A program made the translations under genes and the position numbers. The notes below the pieces were generated by a model that had not been told where the DNA came from, did not search any database, and saw only the letters and a program-made list of their open reading frames with translations. Positions 1 to 39,834 of a DNA stretch of 39,834 bases are shown here, one piece after another; the first letter of the stretch is position 1; each line of letters begins with the position of its first letter. Source of the DNA: a virus (Duplodnaviria; Heunggongvirae; Uroviricota; Caudoviricetes); the IMG/VR virus record IMGVR_UViG_2563366858_000008. One strand, 5' to 3'.

Positions 1-516
1 ATGAAATTTAAAAAATGTCTTCTGCCTGTGGCAATGTTAGCGTCATTCACTCTGGCAGGATGCCAGTCAAATGCTGATGATCATGCCGCCGATGTTTATC
101 AAACCGATCAACTGAATACCAAACAAGAAACTAAAACCGTTAATATTATTTCCATTCTTCCCGCAAAAGTTGCCGTAGACAACTCCCAAAATAAACGGAA
201 CGCACAAGCCTTCGGCGCGCTTATTGGTGCAGTCGCTGGCGGTGTAATCGGCCACAACGTGGGGTCTGGCAGCAATTCCGGAACGACGGCAGGTGCAGTT
301 GGCGGCGGAGCTGTTGGCGCGGCAGCGGGTTCTATGGTGAATGATAAAACCTTAGTGGAAGGTGTTTCTTTAACGTATAAGGAAGGCACCAAAGTGTATA
401 CCTCCACCCAGGTGGGTAAAGAGTGCCAGTTTACGACAGGTTTAGCCGTTGTTATTACCACGACGTATAACGAAACGCGTATTCAGCCAAATACGAAATG
501 TCCTGAAAAGAGCTAA
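1..516 (+). CDS. yfgH: Glycine-zipper outer-membrane lipoprotein (YfgH/YcfJ-like); host flank
   Basis: Signal peptide with lipobox LAGC; Gly/Ala-rich GAVAGGVIGH segment typical of YcfJ-type lipoproteins. Symbol from recalled similarity and 171-aa length, not verified. Confidence 0.6.
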   Translation: MKFKKCLLPVAMLASFTLAGCQSNADDHAADVYQTDQLNTKQETKTVNIISILPAKVAVDNSQNKRNAQAFGALIGAVAGGVIGHNVGSGSNSGTTAGAVGGGAVGAAAGSMVNDKTLVEGVSLTYKEGTKVYTSTQVGKECQFTTGLAVVITTTYNETRIQPNTKCPEKS

Positions 517-531
517 TGATCAGGAGGAGTC

Positions 532-1071
532 ATGAAGAAAGTTTTTCTTTGCGCCATCTTAGCCTCCTTAAGCTATCCGGCTATCGCCTCATCATTGCAG
601 GATCAACTCTCGGCTGTCGCAGAAGCGGAACAGCAAGGTAAAAATGAAGAGCAAAGGCAGCATGACGAATGGGTCGCGGAGCGCAACAGGGAAATCCAGC
701 AAGAGAAGCAACGTCGCGCAAACGCCCAGGCCGCGGCTAATAAAAGAGCGGCAACGGCAGCGGCGAATAAGAAAGCTCGTCAGGATAAACTGGACGCCGA
801 AGCCACTGCGGACAAAAAACGCGATCAAAGTTATGAAGATGAGCTACGCAGCTTAGAGATTCAGAAACAAAAACTGGCGCTGGCGAAAGAAGAAGCCCGC
901 GTCAAGCGCGAAAACGAATTTATCGATCAGGAACTGAAGCACAAAGCTGCGCAAACCGATGTGGTGCAATCTGAAGCTGACGCAAACAGAAATATGACTG
1001 AAGGCGGTCGCGATCTGATGAAAAGCGTGGGCAAAGCAGAAGAGAACAAATCGGACAGCTGGTTTAACTAA
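532..1071 (+). CDS. yfgI: Secreted coiled-coil protein (YfgI-like); host flank
   Basis: AGGAGG 6 nt upstream of ATG; signal peptide then charged coiled-coil; 179 aa. Symbol from recalled similarity, not verified. Confidence 0.6.
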   Translation: MKKVFLCAILASLSYPAIASSLQDQLSAVAEAEQQGKNEEQRQHDEWVAERNREIQQEKQRRANAQAAANKRAATAAANKKARQDKLDAEATADKKRDQSYEDELRSLEIQKQKLALAKEEARVKRENEFIDQELKHKAAQTDVVQSEADANRNMTEGGRDLMKSVGKAEENKSDSWFN

Positions 1072-1110
1072 GCGATGTCAGTAACTTCAAGCCTATGATT
1101 CGTGAGTATA

Positions 1111-3190: not shown

Positions 3191-3205
3191 TTACCCTATA
3201 GGTGA
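3191..3205. promoter_or_regulatory. Operator-like inverted repeat TTACCCTATAGGTGA (1 mismatch to TTACC-N5-GGTAA) upstream of the acetyltransferase gene
   Basis: 37 bp upstream of ATG 3242 in AT-rich promoter region. Confidence 0.4.
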
Positions 3206-7444: not shown

Positions 7445-7600
7445 GTTAAATCTCCAGATAGTCGCAGCACCCGTTGCGCCGCATATCTGGTTATTCTATT
7501 ACCTGAAAAACCATATATGGATGGAAAGAGTGTTAATGTGAGCAGATATTACCTTTCAGGTGATTCGCAAAACGTGCTGGATAGCAAACAAATTATCTGC

Positions 7601-7620
7601 TACTGTATAAATATACAGTT
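7601..7620 (+). promoter_or_regulatory. LexA (SOS) box
   Basis: TACTGTATAAATATACAGTT matches CTGT-(A/T)8-ACAG; lies 20 bp upstream of the moron start codon. Confidence 0.75.
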
Positions 7621-7639
7621 ATTGCATGGAGAAGATAAG

Positions 7640-7897
7640 ATGCAGCAGTATCACTATCCACTGAAAGAGGGATTTACCGAAAGGATTCACACGCCGGGAG
7701 GCGTCAGGTCACTGGTGGAAGGATCGCACTTGATGAAATTACTCCGGGATCTCGATAAGGATGGATTTAATGTCGATGGCCCACTTGCCGAACTGACTGC
7801 ACTGATTAACTACGTCACCAGCTCACAGATGTCTATGCAGGATCTGCAAACACATCTCGACTATTGTGCCGAACAATTACGAAAACAAACCCGGTAA
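7640..7897 (+). CDS. Small SOS-regulated moron protein, unknown function (candidate antirepressor)
   Basis: GGAGAAG RBS 5 nt before ATG 7640; 85 aa; the track's longer ORF from 7517 would contain the LexA box. Confidence 0.6.
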   Translation: MQQYHYPLKEGFTERIHTPGGVRSLVEGSHLMKLLRDLDKDGFNVDGPLAELTALINYVTSSQMSMQDLQTHLDYCAEQLRKQTR

Positions 7898-24138: not shown

Positions 24139-24345
24139 TTACTGACCAAGCAGCGTTTTACCGCTGGCATTAGCGGTTGATGTGTCGCCCTGAGAACCGG
24201 TAAGCAGCGTAGAACTACGACCAGCAGCAGCGCGACGGCGACGTGTTTCTTCGTCGCGGGCATCAACAACGGCGGCATCCTGCTCCTGTGGTGCTGCCTG
24301 AACTTCTGGTGTTGCAGGCACTGATGGTGAGCTACCCATGCACAT
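24139..24345 (-). CDS. Small protein upstream of portal
   Basis: GGAG RBS 9 nt upstream of ATG; 68 aa, Ala/Arg-rich. Confidence 0.45.
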   Translation of the reverse strand: MCMGSSPSVPATPEVQAAPQEQDAAVVDARDEETRRRRAAAGRSSTLLTGSQGDTSTANASGKTLLGQ

Positions 24346-24413
24346 ATCAATGACTCCGTACGCAATTAAATTATTACCAATTTAACCACATATGATTTAT
24401 TTATCGTAGATAG

Positions 24414-24419
24414 TTGACA
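24414..24419 (+). promoter_or_regulatory. TTGACA -35-like hexamer upstream of the tRNA; -10 unclear
   Basis: Consensus -35 located 16 bp before the operator-like repeat at 24436. Confidence 0.35.
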
Positions 24420-24435
24420 TTTAACGCACAAATTA

Positions 24436-24450
24436 TTACCTTTAAGGTAA
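24436..24450. promoter_or_regulatory. Operator-like inverted repeat TTACCTTTAAGGTAA (perfect)
   Basis: Perfect TTACC-N5-GGTAA in the noncoding region upstream of the tRNA. Confidence 0.6.
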
Positions 24451-24772
24451 CCAAAGAGTTCATTCCGGTTACTAACCTGACTGGCTTGTCGTTAAATTGA
24501 ACAGGTGGAGTGAGCTTTTATTTTGAGCAGTACGGCGTATGGCACATGCGCCGATAGCGGTCTGGATACGTTTAAGGGGCACCCTCCCTTGCTCGGGCAA
24601 ACGAACCAGGTAGCCGGAATGTGCAAGTCGAGCGGTTTTATTCCGCGCACGGGGATTCACCATCCCGGCGATTCGGTGTGACGCCTCGGAAGAGACGAGG
24701 GTACAACGATGAGAGCATTTATGGAGCCGCGACAAAGTGTGGTGCCTTAACAGGCTAAGTGCTCTCAGCGTT

Positions 24773-24849
24773 GTGGCATTAGCTCAGTTGGACAGAGCAA
24801 CCGCCTTCTAAGCGGTTGGTCGCAGGTTCGAATCCTGCATGCCACGCCA
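24773..24849 (+). tRNA. tRNA-Arg (anticodon UCU), phage-encoded
   Basis: Full cloverleaf: acceptor GTGGCAT/ATGCCAC, D-arm GCTC/GAGC, anticodon stem ACCGC/GCGGT with loop CTTCTAA, T-arm GCAGG-TTCGAAT-CCTGC, discriminator G and encoded CCA. Confidence 0.95.
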
Positions 24850-24892
24850 GAATCACGCATAAGGACCGTGATGCCAGAAGTTCCAGGGGCTT

Positions 24893-24934
24893 GGCGGTGA
24901 TGGTTTCCCTTGAAGGACTATCACCGCCCTTTTT
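24893..24934 (+). terminator. Intrinsic terminator after the tRNA
   Basis: 9-bp stem GGCGGTGAT/ATCACCGCC followed by CTTTTT. Confidence 0.7.
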
Positions 24935-25012
24935 ACAGCAGGACGCCATTGCGATGACTTCATGCTGTAAACCAGTACAGCCACGGAAGGCATAACTCAT
25001 TGCTTCCAGTTC

Positions 25013-25036
25013 GCCCGGTTCGCCGGGCATTTTTTT
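25013..25036 (+). terminator. Terminator-like hairpin in the 5' leader of the 25053 gene
   Basis: GCCCGG-ttcg-CCGGGC followed by ATTTTTTT; RBS AAGGTGAG directly after. Confidence 0.6.
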
Positions 25037-25052
25037 AAGGTGAGATTAGACT

Positions 25053-25424
25053 ATGAGTGACAAAGACATTGAATCTGAAATTCAGGCTAAAGGTTTAGCC
25101 GCGCCGCGCGTTACGCCAGACCATATCGAGAGCATTATTGCTCAGGAGGCATATTTCACAGCAGAAGATGGTGTCTTTGGCGTAGCCATAAAAGCGAAAC
25201 ATACTGGCGGAGAGGTAAACTACCAGCCGCACGAATCACTTTCTCTGCTGACGTTCTGCGTTCTGGTGCTGCGCAACGGCTTCACCGTCACCGGAGAGAG
25301 CGCCTGTGCAAGCCCGGAAAACTTTGATGCGGAAATTGGTCGGAAGATTGCCCGGCAGAATGCTGTAAACAAAATCTGGATGCTTGAAGGTTACTTGCTG
25401 AAGCAGAAGTTAAGCGAGCAATAA
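25053..25424 (+). CDS. Moron protein of unknown function, co-located with the tRNA
   Basis: AAGGTGAG RBS; 123 aa; opposite strand to flanking terminase and portal genes. Confidence 0.65.
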   Translation: MSDKDIESEIQAKGLAAPRVTPDHIESIIAQEAYFTAEDGVFGVAIKAKHTGGEVNYQPHESLSLLTFCVLVLRNGFTVTGESACASPENFDAEIGRKIARQNAVNKIWMLEGYLLKQKLSEQ

Positions 25425-26990: not shown

Positions 26991-27583
26991 TGATTGCCAT
27001 CCTGACGTTCTTTCAGTCTCTTCCTGGCTGCCGCTATGCGATCAGCAATTGTCACATTCACATTAACATCCAGGCGTTCTTTGAACGCGTTGACATCAAC
27101 ATGCTTACCAATCAGCTCAAGGTTCTTCACCTTGTCAGGCCATTTAATTTTTTTGAGGATTGTCTCTATCGAATCCTCGTTCATGTTCATGATGGTCGAT
27201 GACAGATCAAAGCCACTAAGCGTAGTGCGCCAGATTTTCGGCCACTCACGGATTGGTTTAAGGCTCCCATCGTCGTTGAGGATATCGATCACGTCCATCT
27301 GGTCGATCTCCACCAGGCGCATGAGAACGTAATCAGCACTGACGCGCATTCGTTTGTTGCGCTCCTCCATCAACTCGGCAATCCGTTTTTGAATGCGTAC
27401 ATCGCGCATCATGACACTGGCTTTAACTGCCGCTGTATTTGGGGAGAACCCTGCGTTAATCGCTGCCTGAGTCTGGTTTTCAGGCGTTTTGATGTATGAC
27501 TGGCAATAAGCCTCCTGCATTGCTGTGAGCGGCTTAAATTGCGTTGATTTGCGTTTATAGGTTTTAGGTTCAGCAGGCATCAT
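26987..27583 (-). CDS. Terminase small subunit
   Basis: Start MMPAEPK at ATG 27583 (the track's N-terminal extension to 27661 crosses a terminator and operator repeats); motif QEAYCQSYIKT...AAINAGFS typical of small subunits. Confidence 0.75.
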   Translation of the reverse strand: MMPAEPKTYKRKSTQFKPLTAMQEAYCQSYIKTPENQTQAAINAGFSPNTAAVKASVMMRDVRIQKRIAELMEERNKRMRVSADYVLMRLVEIDQMDVIDILNDDGSLKPIREWPKIWRTTLSGFDLSSTIMNMNEDSIETILKKIKWPDKVKNLELIGKHVDVNAFKERLDVNVNVTIADRIAAARKRLKERQDGNQ

Positions 27584-27597
27584 AACCACCGTGGTAA
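27583..27597. promoter_or_regulatory. Operator-like repeat TAACCACCGTGGTAA (1 mismatch), overlapping terS start
   Basis: Adjacent to the perfect copy at 27601; 18 bp centre-to-centre. Confidence 0.45.
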
Positions 27598-27600
27598 TAG

Positions 27601-27615
27601 TTACCGTTGTGGTAA
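27601..27615. promoter_or_regulatory. Operator-like inverted repeat TTACCGTTGTGGTAA (perfect)
   Basis: Between the late-leader terminator and the terS start codon. Confidence 0.6.
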
Positions 27616-27622
27616 TAGTACC

Positions 27623-27652
27623 ATGCAAAATAAAGCCGCCATAGTTGGCGGC
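27623..27652 (-). terminator. Intrinsic terminator immediately upstream of the terminase genes (tR'-like)
   Basis: GCCGCC-aactat-GGCGGC followed by TTTATTTTG on the minus strand. Confidence 0.65.
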
Positions 27653-27657
27653 AGTAT

Positions 27658-31083: not shown

Positions 31084-31428
31084 TCAGAACTCTTCGATGT
31101 TCCAGCCACCACCTGCTTTCTTTGGTTTAACCGTTACCCCGATGATTCGGAACGGATACTGATCTGCGGCGACTTTGGTTTTCACCCTGGCGTCGTCGGT
31201 CCAGAAACCTTTCACTTCGTGCAGTTCCATCTCGCCGGTGGCGAGCATCACAGCGAAATCGGGCGTATAGAACGTGTTGTCAGCTAACCGCAGCTTGATA
31301 CCCTCGAATCGATACCAGGCGATTTCCCCTGCACGTTTACGCTGCTCAAGGTGCTGGCAATACACAGATTCTGTTTTGTTCATCTGGCCTGTTTTGAGTC
31401 GACCAAGAGCCTGTATCTGTTTTCTCAT
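31084..31428 (-). CDS. DUF1064-type nin-region protein
   Basis: GAGGT RBS 5 nt before ATG 31428; 114 aa; family assignment from memory. Confidence 0.5.
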   Translation of the reverse strand: MRKQIQALGRLKTGQMNKTESVYCQHLEQRKRAGEIAWYRFEGIKLRLADNTFYTPDFAVMLATGEMELHEVKGFWTDDARVKTKVAADQYPFRIIGVTVKPKKAGGGWNIEEF

Positions 31429-31431
31429 GAT

Positions 31432-31446
31432 TTACCTCTAAGGTAA
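31432..31446. promoter_or_regulatory. Operator-like inverted repeat TTACCTCTAAGGTAA (perfect)
   Basis: Overlaps RBS/leader of the 31084..31428 gene. Confidence 0.6.
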
Positions 31447-31474
31447 TTAAAAACCACATAAGACACGAAATCAA
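31446..31474 (-). promoter_or_regulatory. Candidate sigma70 promoter for the nin-like operon
   Basis: Minus strand TTGATT, 17-bp spacer, TTTAAT; flanked by operator-like repeats at 31432 and 31494. Confidence 0.4.
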
Positions 31475-31493
31475 TAGAGCTTAGAATATTTTA

Positions 31494-31508
31494 TTACCCG
31501 ACAGGTAA
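31494..31508. promoter_or_regulatory. Operator-like inverted repeat TTACCCGACAGGTAA (perfect)
   Basis: Just downstream (minus strand) of the terminator-like hairpin after the P-like gene. Confidence 0.6.
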
Positions 31509-32331: not shown

Positions 32332-33167
32332 AAGAAATCCTCCCACGCTTCAGGGCTGTTCCAGTGCGGAACGTTGTTATCAGGTAATGTTGATTGCTTC
32401 TGTCTGCTAATCTGCAGCCGCCTTCCCAGCTTCTGCTCCCACTGTGCCTGATGGTATGCCTTACCCTCAGCCATCCAGTAAATTCTGAACTCTGCAAGTT
32501 CCTGTGCCGTTGGCAGACTGTCCAGGTAGATCCCCTGCAATGAGCTTTTCCGAAGAAAGTCATCTGATGGTTGCCATTGTTCATGCATGACAAATTTGCC
32601 TAATTGCCCTGGCCCACCAGGAGGAACAAAGTTATTCATCACGGCGTTGTTTGCGCCGGGGTCATGAGGCACAGAATCCCCGGTTTTTGTCCTGCTCTCC
32701 CTCTCTTGGTTAAATGACTGGTTATATGACTGGTTCTGGATCCCGTTTTTGGGATCATTCAACATCCCGTTTTTGGGATCATTCAACATCCCGTTTTTGG
32801 GATCATTCAACATCCCGTTTTTGGGTATATTCCCGTTTTCGGGAACATTACCGTTTTCGGGTTCATTACGTCCTTCTAGGTTGCCTTTAATGTTCCCTTT
32901 TTTGGTTATATTAAGAGAGAAAACCCGCACTCTTTTCGTCGCTCCCTTTCTCTCTCCGGTATCTGAAATAAGCCCCATTTTCATGAGCGATATAAGCCCG
33001 GCCTGCACGGTTTTTTTATTCAGGCAAGTGTCTTTAACGAGGCGTTCTATGCTGGGGTAGCAGAGGTTATATTCATCGGCTCTGTCAGCCATCGAGAGCA
33101 GTATGAGCTTTAATGACGAGCTACCTGGATCTGTCTCCCAGGCCCAATCTGTTGCATGTCTGCTCAT
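32328..33167 (-). CDS. Replication initiator O-like, with internal origin iterons
   Basis: N-terminal helix-turn-helix-like region; central NGMLNDPK x3 repeat encoded by DNA iterons; directly upstream of P-like gene. Confidence 0.7.
   Translation of the reverse strand: MSRHATDWAWETDPGSSSLKLILLSMADRADEYNLCYPSIERLVKDTCLNKKTVQAGLISLMKMGLISDTGERKGATKRVRVFSLNITKKGNIKGNLEGRNEPENGNVPENGNIPKNGMLNDPKNGMLNDPKNGMLNDPKNGIQNQSYNQSFNQERESRTKTGDSVPHDPGANNAVMNNFVPPGGPGQLGKFVMHEQWQPSDDFLRKSSLQGIYLDSLPTAQELAEFRIYWMAEGKAYHQAQWEQKLGRRLQISRQKQSTLPDNNVPHWNSPEAWEDFL
32741..32866. repeat. Origin-like iteron array inside the O-like gene
   Basis: Three exact 24-bp units TCCCGTTTTTGGGATCATTCAACA (32741, 32765, 32789) then three degenerate 18-bp units, each with a CCCG-T(4-5)-GGG dyad; AT-rich stretch follows. 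Confidence 0.75.
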
Positions 33168-33182
33168 GATTAATCTCCGCTA

Positions 33183-33383
33183 TCAGCTTGAGTGTTGTGG
33201 GGAGGAATTAATCATGATCTGCTTAATCTCTGCCCTGATGCGACGGTTTGATTCCATGGTGCACTCAACACAGTGTCCGTTGTAAACCCAGCGTTCACTG
33301 TCATGTCCGTGCTTACATGGTTTTCCGGTGTAGTAGCGTTTAAGTCCGCGCTTTGCGGCATCAATACGTGTAATGATTTCCAT
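33183..33383 (-). CDS. Small zinc-binding protein
   Basis: Start MEIITRIDAAKRG at ATG 33383; CKHGH...CVEC motif; 66 aa. Confidence 0.45.
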   Translation of the reverse strand: MEIITRIDAAKRGLKRYYTGKPCKHGHDSERWVYNGHCVECTMESNRRIRAEIKQIMINSSPQHSS

Positions 33384-33463
33384 GGTAAGCCCTGTTATTA
33401 GTATTGGGATTACGGTTATTTTGTGCTGACACAAAAAAAAGATCAACCAGATTTGGTTTTTTG

Positions 33464-33478
33464 TTACCTTTTAGGTAC
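33464..33478. promoter_or_regulatory. Operator-like repeat TTACCTTTTAGGTAC (1 mismatch)
   Basis: Between the terminator after the cro-like gene and the next gene. Confidence 0.45.
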
Positions 33479-33533: not shown

Positions 33534-33764
33534 TCATGAGTAGAAGAAGTACGCCAGTTCTGCTTTTGAGCGCAGCCATCGTCTTGTTTTACAGGCTTTA
33601 AAAAGCCCATTCATCAATACCTTACCTGGCATTTTGCGCTTACCTGTTAAGTGAGTCTGGATATAGTGACTCGTCGTTCCGGCTTCCTGTGCGAAGGCTT
33701 CACGCTCATCCGGAGTAAGTGCAAGCCAGTGTTTTTTGAAATCGAAATGTCCGTTATCGCTCAT
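33534..33764 (-). CDS. Cro-like small regulator
   Basis: 76 aa; divergent from the repressor gene across the three-site operator region. Confidence 0.5.
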   Translation of the reverse strand: MSDNGHFDFKKHWLALTPDEREAFAQEAGTTSHYIQTHLTGKRKMPGKVLMNGLFKACKTRRWLRSKAELAYFFYS

Positions 33765-33800
33765 AGCTATTGCCTGATATTTATTTCAGATAATAAATAT

Positions 33801-33815
33801 TCACCCATAAGGTAA
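33801..33815. promoter_or_regulatory. Operator site TCACCCATAAGGTAA (1 mismatch)
   Basis: First of three sites in the cro/cI intergenic region. Confidence 0.55.
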
Positions 33816-33831
33816 CAAAAATCAAGGATAG

Positions 33832-33846
33832 TTACCCATGGGGTGC
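33832..33846. promoter_or_regulatory. Operator site TTACCCATGGGGTGC (2 mismatches)
   Basis: Middle site; 17 bp centre-to-centre from the next. Confidence 0.45.
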
Positions 33847-33848
33847 AT

Positions 33849-33863
33849 TTACCTGTTGGGTAA
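33849..33863. promoter_or_regulatory. Operator site TTACCTGTTGGGTAA (perfect)
   Basis: Third site of the tripartite operator. Confidence 0.65.
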
Positions 33864-33918
33864 TATTGCTTTAAATTGAATCATCTACTGATTCATATAT
33901 GAGGCGATTTTCCAGAAA

Positions 33919-34503
33919 ATGAAAAGTATCCAGGACGTCCGCAGGCAAAATCTCAACGACTTGATCGACCGTGAATTCAATGGTGTTCAGACGCGGATGG
34001 CAGAAAAACTTGGAACTCAGGCAAATCTGGTAAACCGCTGGGCTCTTGGCAAGAAGGTTATCGGCGACCAGGTTGCGCGAAAAATTGAAGCTGCCGCCAA
34101 TAAACCCCGTAACTGGCTTGATATCGATCGCTCGCTTTCTCAGGAAGGTTTTCAGCCTGTCGGCCCAAGCGACATTGGTCAGCTGGCGGCTCACAACCTG
34201 GAACGCTGGATGAGCGAAAGCCGCGACCTTTCAACACAGGGAAAACTTCACCGCGCATCCGGCGTCGCCCAGGTGACAATCAGCCGCCTGTTAAACAATG
34301 AGGTCAGCGTTTCCATTTCCACCCTGGAGAATGTTGCATCCGCATTCGGGCGTCACGGCTATGAATTACTGATTCACCCGCACGACCCTGCGACTATCAA
34401 CTATGACCGCTCGCGCTACGCATTGTTACCCGAAACAGAGAAGGCAAAGATCGAAAGTTACATTGAATTTGTCATCAGCCAGAACGAAAAAAACAAACAA
34501 TAA
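33919..34503 (+). CDS. Prophage repressor, tandem HTH (XRE-type), no autocleavage domain (cI-like)
   Basis: Two HTH-like segments (QTRMAEKLGTQANLVNRW and ASGVAQVTISRLL); 194 aa, no room for an S24 peptidase domain; divergent from cro-like gene. Confidence 0.7.
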   Translation: MKSIQDVRRQNLNDLIDREFNGVQTRMAEKLGTQANLVNRWALGKKVIGDQVARKIEAAANKPRNWLDIDRSLSQEGFQPVGPSDIGQLAAHNLERWMSESRDLSTQGKLHRASGVAQVTISRLLNNEVSVSISTLENVASAFGRHGYELLIHPHDPATINYDRSRYALLPETEKAKIESYIEFVISQNEKNKQ

Positions 34504-34523
34504 AATCATATTTTTCAGTAAGT

Positions 34524-34550
34524 AAGCCGCCTCATGGCGGCTTTTTTATT
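34524..34550 (+). terminator. Intrinsic terminator after the repressor gene
   Basis: AAGCCGCC-tcat-GGCGGCTT followed by TTTTTATT. Confidence 0.75.
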
Positions 34551-34560
34551 GCCAGCAAGA

Positions 34561-34575
34561 TTACCTTATGGGTAA
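34561..34575. promoter_or_regulatory. Operator site TTACCTTATGGGTAA (perfect)
   Basis: Upstream flank of the early-left promoter. Confidence 0.65.
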
Positions 34576-34594
34576 TTTTTTTAACTCATATCTA

Positions 34595-34622
34595 TTGACA
34601 TCAAACCAGATACGCATAATCA
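34595..34622 (+). promoter_or_regulatory. Early-left promoter (PL-like)
   Basis: TTGACA, 16-bp spacer, TAATCA; bracketed by operator sites at 34561 and 34623. Confidence 0.55.
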
Positions 34623-34637
34623 TTACCTCAACGGTAA
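34623..34637. promoter_or_regulatory. Operator site TTACCTCAACGGTAA (perfect)
   Basis: Immediately after the -10; would cover the transcription start. Confidence 0.65.
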
Positions 34638-38583: not shown

Positions 38584-39834
38584 TTATTCCTCCGCCATCC
38601 ACTTCTCAAACTTCGACGGGGAGAACGGAATCAGATCCGTATGCTCCCCGTTAATCCAGGAATCAATCATATCGGCCCACTGCTGCAACATGTAGGCGCG
38701 CTGTCTGGCGTATTCCGCTTTGTTATATACGGCGCGCACACCTTTCTGCTCATGTGCCAGAGCCTTTTCAATCCAGTCTGAAGGATAACCAGCCTCATGC
38801 AACAACGTACTGGCTGTACGGCGCATATCATGTACAGTGAAGTCCTGAATATGATCACCATCTTCATTTATTATTTTCACCGTTCTGTCGATCAGAGAGT
38901 TCAGCGCGGCATTAGATAATGGCTTCCGGAAATTGTAACGACCAGGAACCAGATATTCACTTCCACCAGCGCACATCTGCAACCCGATTAATATATCCTG
39001 TGCCTGTTTAGGCAGGTAAATAACGTGCGCCCGACTTCCCTTCATGCGGTCTGAAGGAATTGTCCATGTCCATTTTTTAAAATCTATTTCATCCCACGTT
39101 GCATTGGTGAATTCGCCTTTACGAACCATAGTGATAAGCACCAGCTTTAAAGCCATTTTCATAGTGCCCATAGCACCAATGGCATCCAGCGTGCGGAAGA
39201 ACAGACCAATTTCTTCTGGTGTCAGTGTTCGCTCTCGTGGTTTAAATATGGCGATAGACGAAGGTTTAATGTCAGCCGCAGGATTAAACAAACCATGACC
39301 ACGGTCATTGGCGTGACGGTATACGCTGCTGATGATCTCCCTGGCCTGCACTGCTGTTGCCCGACCACCGCGTTCGACAATCCGGTCACACAAATCACGA
39401 ACCATCGATGTGGTAATTTCAGCCATTATTTTGTTGCCAAGAACCGGAAGTATGTCACGGTCGATCACCGCCTGCTTCATTGCGCGGGTACTGTCAGCCA
39501 GGATGACGTGTTTCATATAACTGTCGGTATGTACCGCAAACGTCTCGGCACCACGAATCTTTTTGATACCGTCACGTTTAGCCGCAGCCGGCGACTGGCC
39601 TGCTTTAAGCAGCTTCTTTGCAGCAATCAGTTCTTCTCGCGCTTCTGCCAGGCTGATACCGTCACGCCCATACTGCCCGATTACCAGTGTTTCGCGGCGA
39701 CCGTTGATACGGTAGTCATAGCGAAACGAGACCGTGCCTGACGTAAGCACAGCTACATACAGCCCGTCACGATCGGAGACCTTGTACAGTTTGTCCTGCG
39801 GCTTGAGGTTTTTTAATTTTGTATCGGTAAGCAC
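38584..39834 (-). CDS. int: Tyrosine integrase, P4-like; start at window edge
   Basis: N-terminal LTDTKLKNLKP...YKVSDRDGLYVAV arm-binding-like domain; C-terminal HDMRRT and VYNKAEY catalytic Tyr region; GTG at 39832..39834, upstream context not visible. Confidence 0.9.
   Translation of the reverse strand: MLTDTKLKNLKPQDKLYKVSDRDGLYVAVLTSGTVSFRYDYRINGRRETLVIGQYGRDGISLAEAREELIAAKKLLKAGQSPAAAKRDGIKKIRGAETFAVHTDSYMKHVILADSTRAMKQAVIDRDILPVLGNKIMAEITTSMVRDLCDRIVERGGRATAVQAREIISSVYRHANDRGHGLFNPAADIKPSSIAIFKPRERTLTPEEIGLFFRTLDAIGAMGTMKMALKLVLITMVRKGEFTNATWDEIDFKKWTWTIPSDRMKGSRAHVIYLPKQAQDILIGLQMCAGGSEYLVPGRYNFRKPLSNAALNSLIDRTVKIINEDGDHIQDFTVHDMRRTASTLLHEAGYPSDWIEKALAHEQKGVRAVYNKAEYARQRAYMLQQWADMIDSWINGEHTDLIPFSPSKFEKWMAEE

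What the first reader, a model, noticed from the sequence alone, without database searches (positions are those of the whole stretch)
33801..34637. Immunity region bracketed by TTACC-N5-GGTAA operators: three sites between cro and cI, two flanking the early-left promoter
Three adjacent dyads (33801, 33832, 33849; 1, 2 and 0 mismatches) lie between the divergent cro-like and cI-like genes. Two perfect dyads (34561, 34623) bracket a TTGACA/TAATCA promoter just after the cI terminator. This mirrors lambda OR1-3/OL but with a different sequence and an apparent affinity gradient.
Basis: seen in the sequence. Interest (0 to 1): 0.65.

Follow-up and report, generated by a model that had tools for sequence, protein, structure and literature searches.

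The report
Repressor operators of a phiV10-like prophage
The five palindromes are real and are almost certainly the binding sites of this E. coli prophage's lysogeny repressor, but the same motif is already annotated as repressor sites in the sister phage epsilon15, it recurs across the prophage, and the repressor is of the known SPC32H Rep/antirepressor type, not the lambda CI type.

Summary
Observation confirmed. All five TTACC-N5-GGTAA dyads are at the stated coordinates with the stated mismatches. The window holds 7 perfect copies, against 0 in 100 shuffles.

The window is a phiV10/epsilon15-like (Uetakevirus) prophage of E. coli. Its 194-aa repressor is a homologue of SPC32H Rep (PDB 5D50). 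It has two HTH domains and no S24 protease domain. The prophage also carries an 85-aa Ant that is 88% identical to SPC32H Ant, behind a LexA box.

The epsilon15 RefSeq record already annotates ATTACC-N5-GGTAAT as "repressor" binding sites at seven places. Arms are invariant and centres vary freely in 80 close relatives and about 12 diverged genomes. The architecture is also conserved: a triple between cro and rep spaced 31 and 17 bp, and a pair 62 bp apart bracketing PL.

Further sites are:
- an identical 62-bp pair around a second early promoter (31432/31494);
- a pair before the small-terminase gene, terS (27583/27601);
- single sites at a tRNA-Arg promoter (24436), after the cro terminator (33464), upstream of ant (7549) and beside the lysis cassette (3191).

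Verdict: a correct but ordinary operator call, a new member of a known kind. No binding data were accessible.

The parts
33801..33815 (.). Operator, cro-proximal (TCACCCATAAGGTAA, 1 mismatch). It lies in the spacer of the leftward cro promoter.
   Evidence: One imperfect arm is conserved in all relatives.
33832..33846 (.). Operator, middle (TTACCCATGGGGTGC, 2 mismatches).
   Evidence: The orthologous site is perfect in epsilon15 and SPC32H. The form TTACC-N5-GGTGC is fixed in 80/80 close relatives.
33849..33863 (.). Operator, rep-proximal (perfect). It overlaps the inferred -35/spacer of the repressor promoter.
33790..33825 (-). cro promoter (inferred). Either TTGTTA(33818-33813)-17-TATTAT(33795-33790), or TTGATT(33825-33820)-18-AATATT(33801-33796).
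   Evidence: TTGATT is invariant in 5 genomes. No transcription start data.
33534..33764 (-). cro-like HTH protein, 76 aa.
   Evidence: (phrog_35 transcriptional repressor).
33919..34503 (+). Rep repressor, 194 aa: an N-terminal HTH DNA-binding domain plus a C-terminal HTH_3-fold domain.
   Evidence: no Peptidase_S24. (SPC32H Rep 5D50, E 4e-42). (the identical protein blocks lytic growth when overexpressed in ZX5).
34524..34550 (+). Intrinsic terminator after rep.
34561..34575 (.). OL upstream operator (perfect), 19 nt upstream of the PL -35.
34595..34623 (+). PL promoter: TTGACA-17-AATCAT.
   Evidence: 10 of 12 matches. CTATTGAC is invariant in 5 genomes.
34623..34637 (.). OL downstream operator (perfect). 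It abuts the -10 and is centred near the inferred +1.
33464..33478 (.). 1-mismatch dyad just after the cro terminator (33512-33493).
   Evidence: The left arm is fixed; the right arm varies.
31494..31508 (.). Upstream operator of the second early promoter ('Pnin').
31446..31474 (-). Pnin promoter: TTGATT-17-TTTAAT. Same geometry as PL.
31432..31446 (.). Downstream operator of Pnin. It overlaps the ribosome-binding site of the resolvase-like gene 31084-31428.
27583..27615 (.). Pair of dyads 18 bp apart (1 and 0 mismatches), between a terminator and the terS start codon.
24414..24450 (+). TTGACA, 16 nt, then a perfect dyad. Upstream of tRNA-Arg(TCT) 24773-24849 and ORF 25053-25424.
7549..7563 (.). 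1-mismatch dyad in the ant/tail-fibre divergent intergenic region.
   Evidence: Orthologous sites in 4 phages.
7601..7620 (.). LexA box TACTGTATAAATATACAGTT upstream of ant.
7640..7897 (+). Antirepressor Ant, 85 aa.
   Evidence: 88% identical to SPC32H Ant.
3191..3205 (.). 1-mismatch dyad between the lysis cassette and the acyltransferase gene.
   Evidence: Orthologous sites in 4 phages.

Best explanation
The dyads are operators of an SPC32H-type Rep/Ant lysogeny switch in a phiV10/epsilon15-like (Uetakevirus) prophage of E. coli.

How it is proposed to work (inferred unless marked):
- The N-terminal HTH domains of Rep (recognition helix NLVNRW) pair up on each 15-17-bp palindrome, ATTACC-N2-W-N2-GGTAAT.
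- Rep is a tetramer with two such DNA-binding pairs, so one tetramer can hold two dyads.
- At PL, one dyad abuts the -10 and lies near +1. The other is 62 bp (about 6 helical turns) upstream. The promoter would be clamped between them.
- At the divergent region, the cro-proximal dyad lies inside the cro promoter spacer and shuts off the lytic rightward operon. The two rep-proximal dyads, 17 bp apart, overlap the inferred rep promoter and would give autoregulation.
- The same protein directly silences at least five further promoter regions or gene starts in this window: Pnin, the terS leader, the tRNA-Arg promoter, the ant/tail-fibre region and the lysis/oac region.
- Induction does not work by RecA-stimulated cleavage. 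SOS removes LexA from the ant promoter, and Ant takes Rep off the DNA.
- The cro-like protein probably reads the same sites.

Shown here:
- the sites, their statistics, their conservation and their geometry;
- homology of Rep and Ant to the SPC32H proteins;
- the LexA box.

Inferred:
- actual binding of Rep to the dyads;
- loop formation;
- promoter assignments.
For: Statistics:
- 7 perfect dyads, none in 100 shuffles; 13 with at most 1 mismatch against 0.62 expected.
- All perfect copies lie in intergenic DNA or at gene starts.

Prior annotation:
- epsilon15 RefSeq NC_004775 annotates seven 'protein_bind: repressor' features. Their sequence is exactly ATTACC-N5-GGTAAT.

Proteins:
- Rep is a homologue of SPC32H Rep over its full length (E 4e-42) and has no S24 domain.
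- Ant is 88% identical to SPC32H Ant and lies behind the only LexA-box match in the window.
- A protein reported identical to phiV10 Rep (the window's differs by 1-2%) abolishes free phage and cuts lysis-gene transcripts by more than 99.9% when overexpressed (PMC9782041).
- SPC32H Rep binds palindromic sites as a tetramer, as summarised in PMC9638917.

Conservation:
- Half-sites are invariant and centres vary in alignments of five phages.
- The same holds in 80 IMG/VR relatives.
- The same motif and spacings occur in prophages of Klebsiella, Citrobacter, Erwinia, Superficieibacter, Scandinavium and Serratia, whose Rep is 41-75% identical.
- Position matrix from 62 distinct sites: flanking A/T 69%, central W 97%.

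Link to Rep:
- N-terminal-domain homologues with a different recognition helix (Paraburkholderia, Hydrogenovibrio, Thiomicrospira) lack the dyad.
- In the Serratia prophage, helix 3 of the cro-like protein is rewritten while the Rep helix and the dyad are unchanged.

Geometry:
- PL and Pnin have identical geometry: dyad, 19 nt, -35, 17 nt, then a -10 abutting the second dyad.
Against: - No binding experiment could be read. Kim & Ryu 2013, Kim et al. 2016 and Kropinski et al. 2007 are not held. The operator sequence for SPC32H Rep therefore rests on the epsilon15 annotation and on comparative evidence.
- Rep and the cro-like protein co-occur in every genome with the motif, so comparative data only weakly separate which protein reads it.
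- The terS pair has no recognisable sigma-70 promoter. The site at 24436 replaces a canonical -10 with TACCTT.
- 17-18-bp centre-to-centre spacing puts adjacent dyads on different faces of the helix. How one tetramer uses them is unclear.
- A 62-bp loop is energetically demanding and is purely inferred.
Confidence: 0.85

Rival explanations
1. A lambda-type switch. A CI-like, RecA-cleavable repressor and Cro compete for a tripartite OR with a graded affinity OR1>OR2>OR3. OL acts as a tandem operator array.
For: - Divergent repressor and cro genes with three dyads between them, a terminator, and then an operator-flanked leftward promoter.
- Site quality is graded, and the grading is conserved.
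Against: - The repressor has no Peptidase_S24 domain.
- It is a homologue of the non-cleavable tetrameric SPC32H Rep.
- A LexA-controlled Ant is present.
- The perfect site is next to rep, not next to cro.
- The OL sites are 62 bp apart on either side of the promoter.
- Operators are spread across the prophage.
Confidence: 0.04
2. The dyads are read mainly by the 76-aa cro-like protein, or by another phage regulator, and not by Rep. They would mark lytic-phase shut-off sites rather than lysogenic repression sites.
For: - The cro-like protein is more conserved than Rep across the genus: 76-83% against 43-78% identity. That matches the invariant operators.
- It co-occurs with the motif in every genome examined.
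Against: - In the Serratia prophage, the cro-like helix 3 differs at 7 of 11 positions, yet the dyad is unchanged. The Rep helix keeps NL[VI][NS]RW.
- Sites at late, lysis, tRNA and ant promoters make sense for a lysogenic silencer.
- The epsilon15 authors assigned the sites to the repressor.
- Overexpressing Rep alone silences lysis genes.
Confidence: 0.08
3. The palindromes act at the RNA level, as small hairpins that sequester ribosome-binding sites. Alternatively they are compositional or chance features.
For: - Two sites overlap a ribosome-binding site or start codon (31432, 27583).
- GGTAA contains a Shine-Dalgarno-like AGGT.
Against: - The hairpins are worth only -3 to -3.5 kcal/mol.
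- The arms never covary. They are sequence-invariant in 62 distinct sites.
- Several sites lie upstream of the -35 element, for example 34561 and 31494.
- No shuffle produced a perfect copy.
Confidence: 0.02

Closest known systems
Predicted repressor-binding sites of Salmonella phage epsilon15 (protein_bind features in RefSeq NC_004775)
   Same: - Identical motif, ATTACC-N5-GGTAAT.
- Orthologous positions: before terS, before gp3/portal, the ant/tail-fibre region, OL and the post-replication promoter.
- Same genus and same gene order.
   Different: - The epsilon15 record lists three OL sites (spaced 76 and 62 bp); the window has two.
- The record does not list the OR triple, although it is present there (33341, 33358, 33388).
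- The middle OR site is perfect in epsilon15 and degenerate (GGTGC) here.
- The Rep proteins are only 43% identical.
- The sites in the record are predictions, not footprints, as far as I could establish.
Rep/Ant lytic switch of Salmonella phage SPC32H (PDB 5D50, 5D4Z; Kim & Ryu 2013; Kim et al. 2016)
   Same: - Rep is homologous over its full length.
- Ant is 88% identical and sits at the same genomic position beside the tailspike/tail-fibre gene.
- There is a LexA box at ant.
- The dyad set is the same in the SPC32H genome.
   Different: - Rep identity is only about 43-45%, mostly in the N-terminal domain.
- The tetramer state, Ant sensitivity and operator binding of this particular protein are untested.
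- I could not read the primary papers, so the experimentally defined SPC32H operator sequence is unverified here.
Phage lambda OR1-3/OL1-3 with CI and Cro
   Same: - Divergent repressor and cro promoters share three operators.
- A second operator set controls the leftward early promoter downstream of the repressor gene.
- Operator quality is graded.
   Different: - The motif differs: 15-17 bp against lambda's 17 bp with another sequence.
- The repressor lacks the S24 autocleavage domain.
- Induction is by antirepressor.
- The best site is rep-proximal.
- The OL sites flank the promoter at 62 bp.
- The operators also sit at late, lysis, tRNA and ant promoters, and at the int promoter in relatives.
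Antirepressor-induced prophages with non-cleavable repressors (Gifsy-1/3, Fels-2, coliphage 186 Tum), from my own knowledge
   Same: - LexA controls a small antirepressor rather than the repressor being cleaved.
   Different: - These repressor and antirepressor families are, to my knowledge, unrelated to Rep/Ant; I made no sequence comparison.
- Their operator motifs and layouts are different.

Membership tests
SPC32H/epsilon15-type Rep-Ant lysogeny switch (Uetakevirus) | Repressor of about 195 aa with an N-terminal HTH DNA-binding domain and a C-terminal HTH-fold oligomerisation/Ant-binding domain; no LexA-like protease. | tested here: met
   (5D50, residues 1-190 aligned, E 4e-42). (HTH_3 at 106-147, a YdaS-like HTH at 21-61, no Peptidase_S24).
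SPC32H/epsilon15-type Rep-Ant lysogeny switch (Uetakevirus) | Small antirepressor gene (about 86 aa) located beside, and divergent from, the tailspike/tail-fibre gene. | tested here: met
   Window 7640-7897 is 88% identical to SPC32H Ant. The position matches L005 19676-19936.
SPC32H/epsilon15-type Rep-Ant lysogeny switch (Uetakevirus) | LexA box at the ant promoter. | tested here: met
   TACTGTATAAATATACAGTT at 7601-7620 is the only match in the window, with 0 expected. It lies 20 nt upstream of the ant ATG.
SPC32H/epsilon15-type Rep-Ant lysogeny switch (Uetakevirus) | Palindromic operators ATTACC-N5-GGTAAT at the immunity region and at dispersed promoters. | tested here: met
SPC32H/epsilon15-type Rep-Ant lysogeny switch (Uetakevirus) | Rep binds the operators as a tetramer and is released by Ant. 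| not testable with these tools
   Only a secondary summary of the SPC32H work was readable (PMC9638917). Needs EMSA and SEC-MALS with this protein.
Lambda-type CI/Cro switch | Repressor carries a C-terminal S24 (LexA-like) autocleavage domain. | tested here: not met
   no Peptidase_S24 hit; the C-terminal domain aligns to the SPC32H Rep domain.
Lambda-type CI/Cro switch | Three tandem operators between divergent repressor and cro promoters. | tested here: met
   Sites 33801, 33832 and 33849 between the genes. Conserved in more than 10 genomes.
Lambda-type CI/Cro switch | The highest-affinity repressor site overlaps the lytic promoter (OR1 at PR); the weakest overlaps the repressor promoter. 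| tested here: inconclusive
   By sequence the order is the reverse: the perfect site is next to rep and the 1-mismatch site lies in the cro promoter. Affinities were not measured.
Lambda-type CI/Cro switch | OL is a tandem array overlapping PL. | tested here: not met
   There are two sites, centred at about -62 and +1, that flank PL.

The most novel reading that the evidence does not exclude
The strictly conserved 62-bp spacing of dyad pairs, with identical geometry (dyad, 19 nt, -35, 17 nt, -10, dyad), may have a functional meaning. It holds at two paralogous promoters, PL and Pnin, in more than 10 diverged genomes.

Proposed reading:
- A single Rep tetramer uses its two trans-assembled DNA-binding pairs to clamp each promoter in a micro-loop of about six helical turns.
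- The same protein directly silences every transcription unit of the phage, including the terS leader, the lysis cassette and a counter-oriented tRNA-Arg unit, and int in relatives. No dedicated late-gene switch would be needed in the lysogen.
- Conserved weak arms at OR would tune the order in which sites are occupied.

This would be a compact, whole-genome 'one tetramer per promoter' repression architecture, distinct from lambda's octamer loop.
Probability: 0.35. Interest if true: 0.45.

Novelty: new member of a known kind. Interest (0 to 1): 0.25.

Why it matters
It gives a complete, coordinate-level operator map for a very common E. coli prophage; more than 200 close relatives were found in IMG/VR alone. 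phiV10 itself is, to my knowledge, used as a reporter and typing phage for E. coli O157:H7.

The map shows three things:
- The epsilon15 operator prediction transfers to the whole genus and beyond, including a Serratia prophage.
- The triple between cro and rep is missing from the epsilon15 annotation, although it is present in that genome.
- The conserved 62-bp promoter-flanking geometry makes the published 'trans' tetramer model of SPC32H Rep directly testable with spacing mutants.

It does not reveal a new kind of system.

Tried and rejected
- Primary papers: I tried to read Kropinski 2007 (PMC2698709), Kim & Ryu 2013 (PMC3807360) and Kim 2016 (PMC4983836 and its DOI). None is held. Full-text searches found no paper that defines Uetakevirus operators.
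- Second IMG/VR scan: run with a Rep alignment to reach distant relatives, it returned only the same relatives with at least 99% identical Rep.
- Covariation test: I looked for Rep homologues with an altered recognition helix inside the same architecture. All full-length homologues found (down to 41% identity) keep NL[VI][NS]RW and the same dyad. Only negative support came from homologues of the N-terminal domain alone.
- Alternative Pnin promoter: TCACCA-type TCAACA-16-TAAAAT, with the upstream dyad in its spacer, was rejected because its -35 is not conserved.
- terS pair: no sigma-70 promoter was found there.
- RNA-hairpin reading: rejected.
- Dyad at 2949 (1 mismatch, inside a coding region): treated as chance. 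No orthologous site at that position turned up in the scans of the relatives.
- Rfam: only the tRNA.

Full report
**1.

- 33801 TCACCCATAAGGTAA (1 mismatch)
- 33832 TTACCCATGGGGTGC (2 mismatches)
- 33849 TTACCTGTTGGGTAA (0)
- 34561 TTACCTTATGGGTAA (0)
- 34623 TTACCTCAACGGTAA (0)

The window has 7 perfect TTACC-N5-GGTAA copies. None appeared in 100 dinucleotide-preserving shuffles. There are 13 copies with at most one mismatch against 0.62 expected.

The first three sites lie between a 76-aa HTH gene on the - strand (33534-33764) and a 194-aa repressor gene on the + strand (33919-34503). The last two bracket TTGACA (34595-34600), a 17-nt spacer and AATCAT (34618-34623). This lies immediately after an intrinsic terminator at 34524-34543.

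**2. What the window is**

- The immunity region is 98% identical to Escherichia phage phiV10 and related Uetakeviruses.
- The left 1.1 kb is E. coli yfgH/yfgI, and the right end is cut inside the integrase gene. The window is therefore an integrated prophage.
- The phiV10 record annotates the repressor, terminators and genes, but no operators.

**3. The repressor is not CI-like**

- Pfam finds HTH domains only and no S24 peptidase.
- The protein aligns over residues 1-190 with the repressor of Salmonella phage SPC32H (PDB 5D50, E 4e-42).
- According to a secondary source that I could read (PMC9638917), SPC32H Rep binds palindromic sites as a tetramer. The DNA-binding pairs come from different dimers. 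A tetrameric antirepressor, Ant, takes it apart.
- The window encodes an 85-aa protein (7640-7897) that is 88% identical to SPC32H Ant. It sits at the same position beside the tail-fibre gene.
- Ant is preceded by the only LexA box in the window, TACTGTATAAATATACAGTT at 7601-7620.
- A protein reported identical to phiV10 Rep (98-99% identical to this window's) abolished free phage and cut holin and endolysin transcripts by more than 99.9% when overexpressed in phage ZX5 (PMC9782041). That paper defines no operators.

**4. The motif is already annotated in a sister phage**

The epsilon15 RefSeq record carries seven 'protein_bind: repressor, lysogeny' features. Their sequences are ATTACC-N5-GGTAAT. 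They lie:
- before terS;
- before gp3/portal;
- between the ant homologue and the tail fibre;
- three between gp37 and the repressor gene (OL);
- one before the resolvase gene.

The triple between the repressor gene and cro is not annotated, but it is present at 33341, 33358 and 33388 (0, 0 and 1 mismatch; spacing 17 and 30 bp).

**5. The regulon in the window is wider than the finding**

Additional sites:
- 31432 + 31494: perfect and 62 bp apart. They flank TTGATT-17-TTTAAT on the - strand, upstream of a resolvase-like gene.
- 27583 + 27601: 18 bp apart, between a terminator and the terS ATG.
- 24436: perfect, 16 nt after a TTGACA. It faces tRNA-Arg(TCT) at 24773-24849 and ORF 25053-25424.
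- 33464: after the cro terminator.
- 7549: upstream of ant.
- 3191: beside the lysis cassette.

Each of these has an orthologous site in phiV10 and Tyrion. All but 33464 (found only in the phiV10 group) also have one in epsilon15 and SPC32H. Those four phages also have a 1-mismatch site at the int promoter, which lies beyond the window's end.

PL and the 31.4-kb promoter have identical geometry: dyad, 19 nt, -35, 17 nt, then a -10 abutting the second dyad.

**6. Evidence of function from comparison**

- Alignments of five phages (OR, OL, Pnin, the tRNA promoter and the terS leader) show invariant arms, free centres and invariant -35 elements (CTATTGAC / CTATTGAT).
- Eighty IMG/VR loci have Rep at least 99% identical. 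In them the arms of all five finding sites are essentially fixed while the centres vary. The OL upstream site alone has at least 13 centre variants.
- The imperfect arms are also fixed: TCACC at the cro-proximal site and GGTGC at the middle site, both in 80/80 loci. Graded site quality therefore appears to be selected.
- A position matrix from 62 distinct perfect sites extends the motif to ATTACC-N2-W-N2-GGTAAT.
- Prophages of Klebsiella, Citrobacter, Scandinavium, Erwinia, Superficieibacter and Serratia have Rep 41-75% identical. They keep the motif, the OR spacing (30/31 + 17) and mostly the 62/63-bp OL pair (Serratia: 75 bp; Scandinavium has extra OL sites).
- Distant homologues of the N-terminal domain alone, with other recognition helices, have no such dyads.
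- In the Serratia prophage, helix 3 of the cro-like protein is largely rewritten. The Rep helix (NL[VI][NS]RW) and the dyad stay the same.

**7. Mechanism (inferred)**

- Rep bound at 33801 sits in the spacer of the cro promoter.
- The adjacent 33832/33849 pair overlaps the inferred rep promoter. The conserved TTTAAATT, with TAAATT at 33872-33877, is taken as the -10.
- At PL and Pnin, one dyad is centred near +1 and the other near -62. That is about six helical turns, which fits one tetramer holding both.
- SOS induction derepresses ant, and Ant removes Rep.
- Weak points: no accessible binding data; no sigma-70 promoter at the terS pair; an atypical -10 at 24436; and the untested feasibility of a 62-bp loop.
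- RNA-level hairpins are implausible. They are worth only -3 to -3.5 kcal/mol and the arms never covary.

**8. Comparison and verdict**

The layout resembles lambda OR/OL, but membership fails on three counts:
- the repressor type;
- the OL architecture;
- by sequence, the order of affinities.

It is a member of the epsilon15/SPC32H Rep-Ant system on every feature that could be tested.

The feature is a new member of a known kind, already predicted for the sister phage. Interest is low to moderate.

Noticed in passing
window 31432-31508: A second promoter-operator module that is a paralogue of PL. Two perfect dyads lie 62 bp apart around TTGATT-17-TTTAAT on the - strand. The downstream dyad doubles as the ribosome-binding site of a resolvase-like gene (31084-31428).
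   Followed up: yes
window 27583-27655: Two dyads 18 bp apart lie between an intrinsic terminator (27652-27635) and the terS start codon. No sigma-70-like promoter is detectable there. How late transcription starts here, and what Rep blocks, is unexplained.
   Followed up: partly
window 24343-25424: A counter-oriented unit sits inside the late region: TTGACA (24414-24419), a dyad (24436), tRNA-Arg(TCT) at 24773-24849 and a 123-aa ORF (25053-25424). The roughly 75 bp to the left of the dyad (24343-24413) are almost invariant across five diverged phages, for an unknown reason.
   Followed up: partly
window 7549-7897: An SPC32H-type antirepressor gene (85 aa, 88% identical to SPC32H Ant) lies behind a near-consensus LexA box (7601-7620), with a 1-mismatch Rep dyad (7549) further upstream. 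Ant is far more conserved than Rep, which is only about 43-45% identical to SPC32H Rep.
   Followed up: yes
window 34561-34575 and loci L009-L088: The central 5 bp of the OL upstream operator is hypervariable among prophages whose Rep is at least 99% identical: at least 13 variants in 80 loci. The arms stay fixed.
   Followed up: partly
window 32707-32869: Iteron-like tandem repeats lie inside the O-like (DnaT/HTH_36) replication gene: 24 bp x 3.6 copies at 100% identity (32740-32825), flanked by 12-bp and 18-bp repeat arrays. This is presumably the replication origin.
   Followed up: no
window 1-1100 and 39600-39834: The left flank is E. coli yfgH/yfgI and the window ends inside the integrase gene. 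This is therefore an integrated prophage. The int-promoter dyad conserved in the four related phages lies outside the window.
   Followed up: partly
window 3191-3205: A 1-mismatch dyad lies between the lysis cassette (- strand) and a 646-aa acyltransferase gene (+ strand, ATG 3242). Which of the two divergent units it controls is unclear. Repressing a lysogenic-conversion gene would be odd.
   Followed up: no
L004 (epsilon15) 33341-33402; L005 (SPC32H) 34390-34451: The triple of dyads between rep and cro is present in epsilon15 and SPC32H but is not among the annotated repressor sites of the epsilon15 record.
   Followed up: yes
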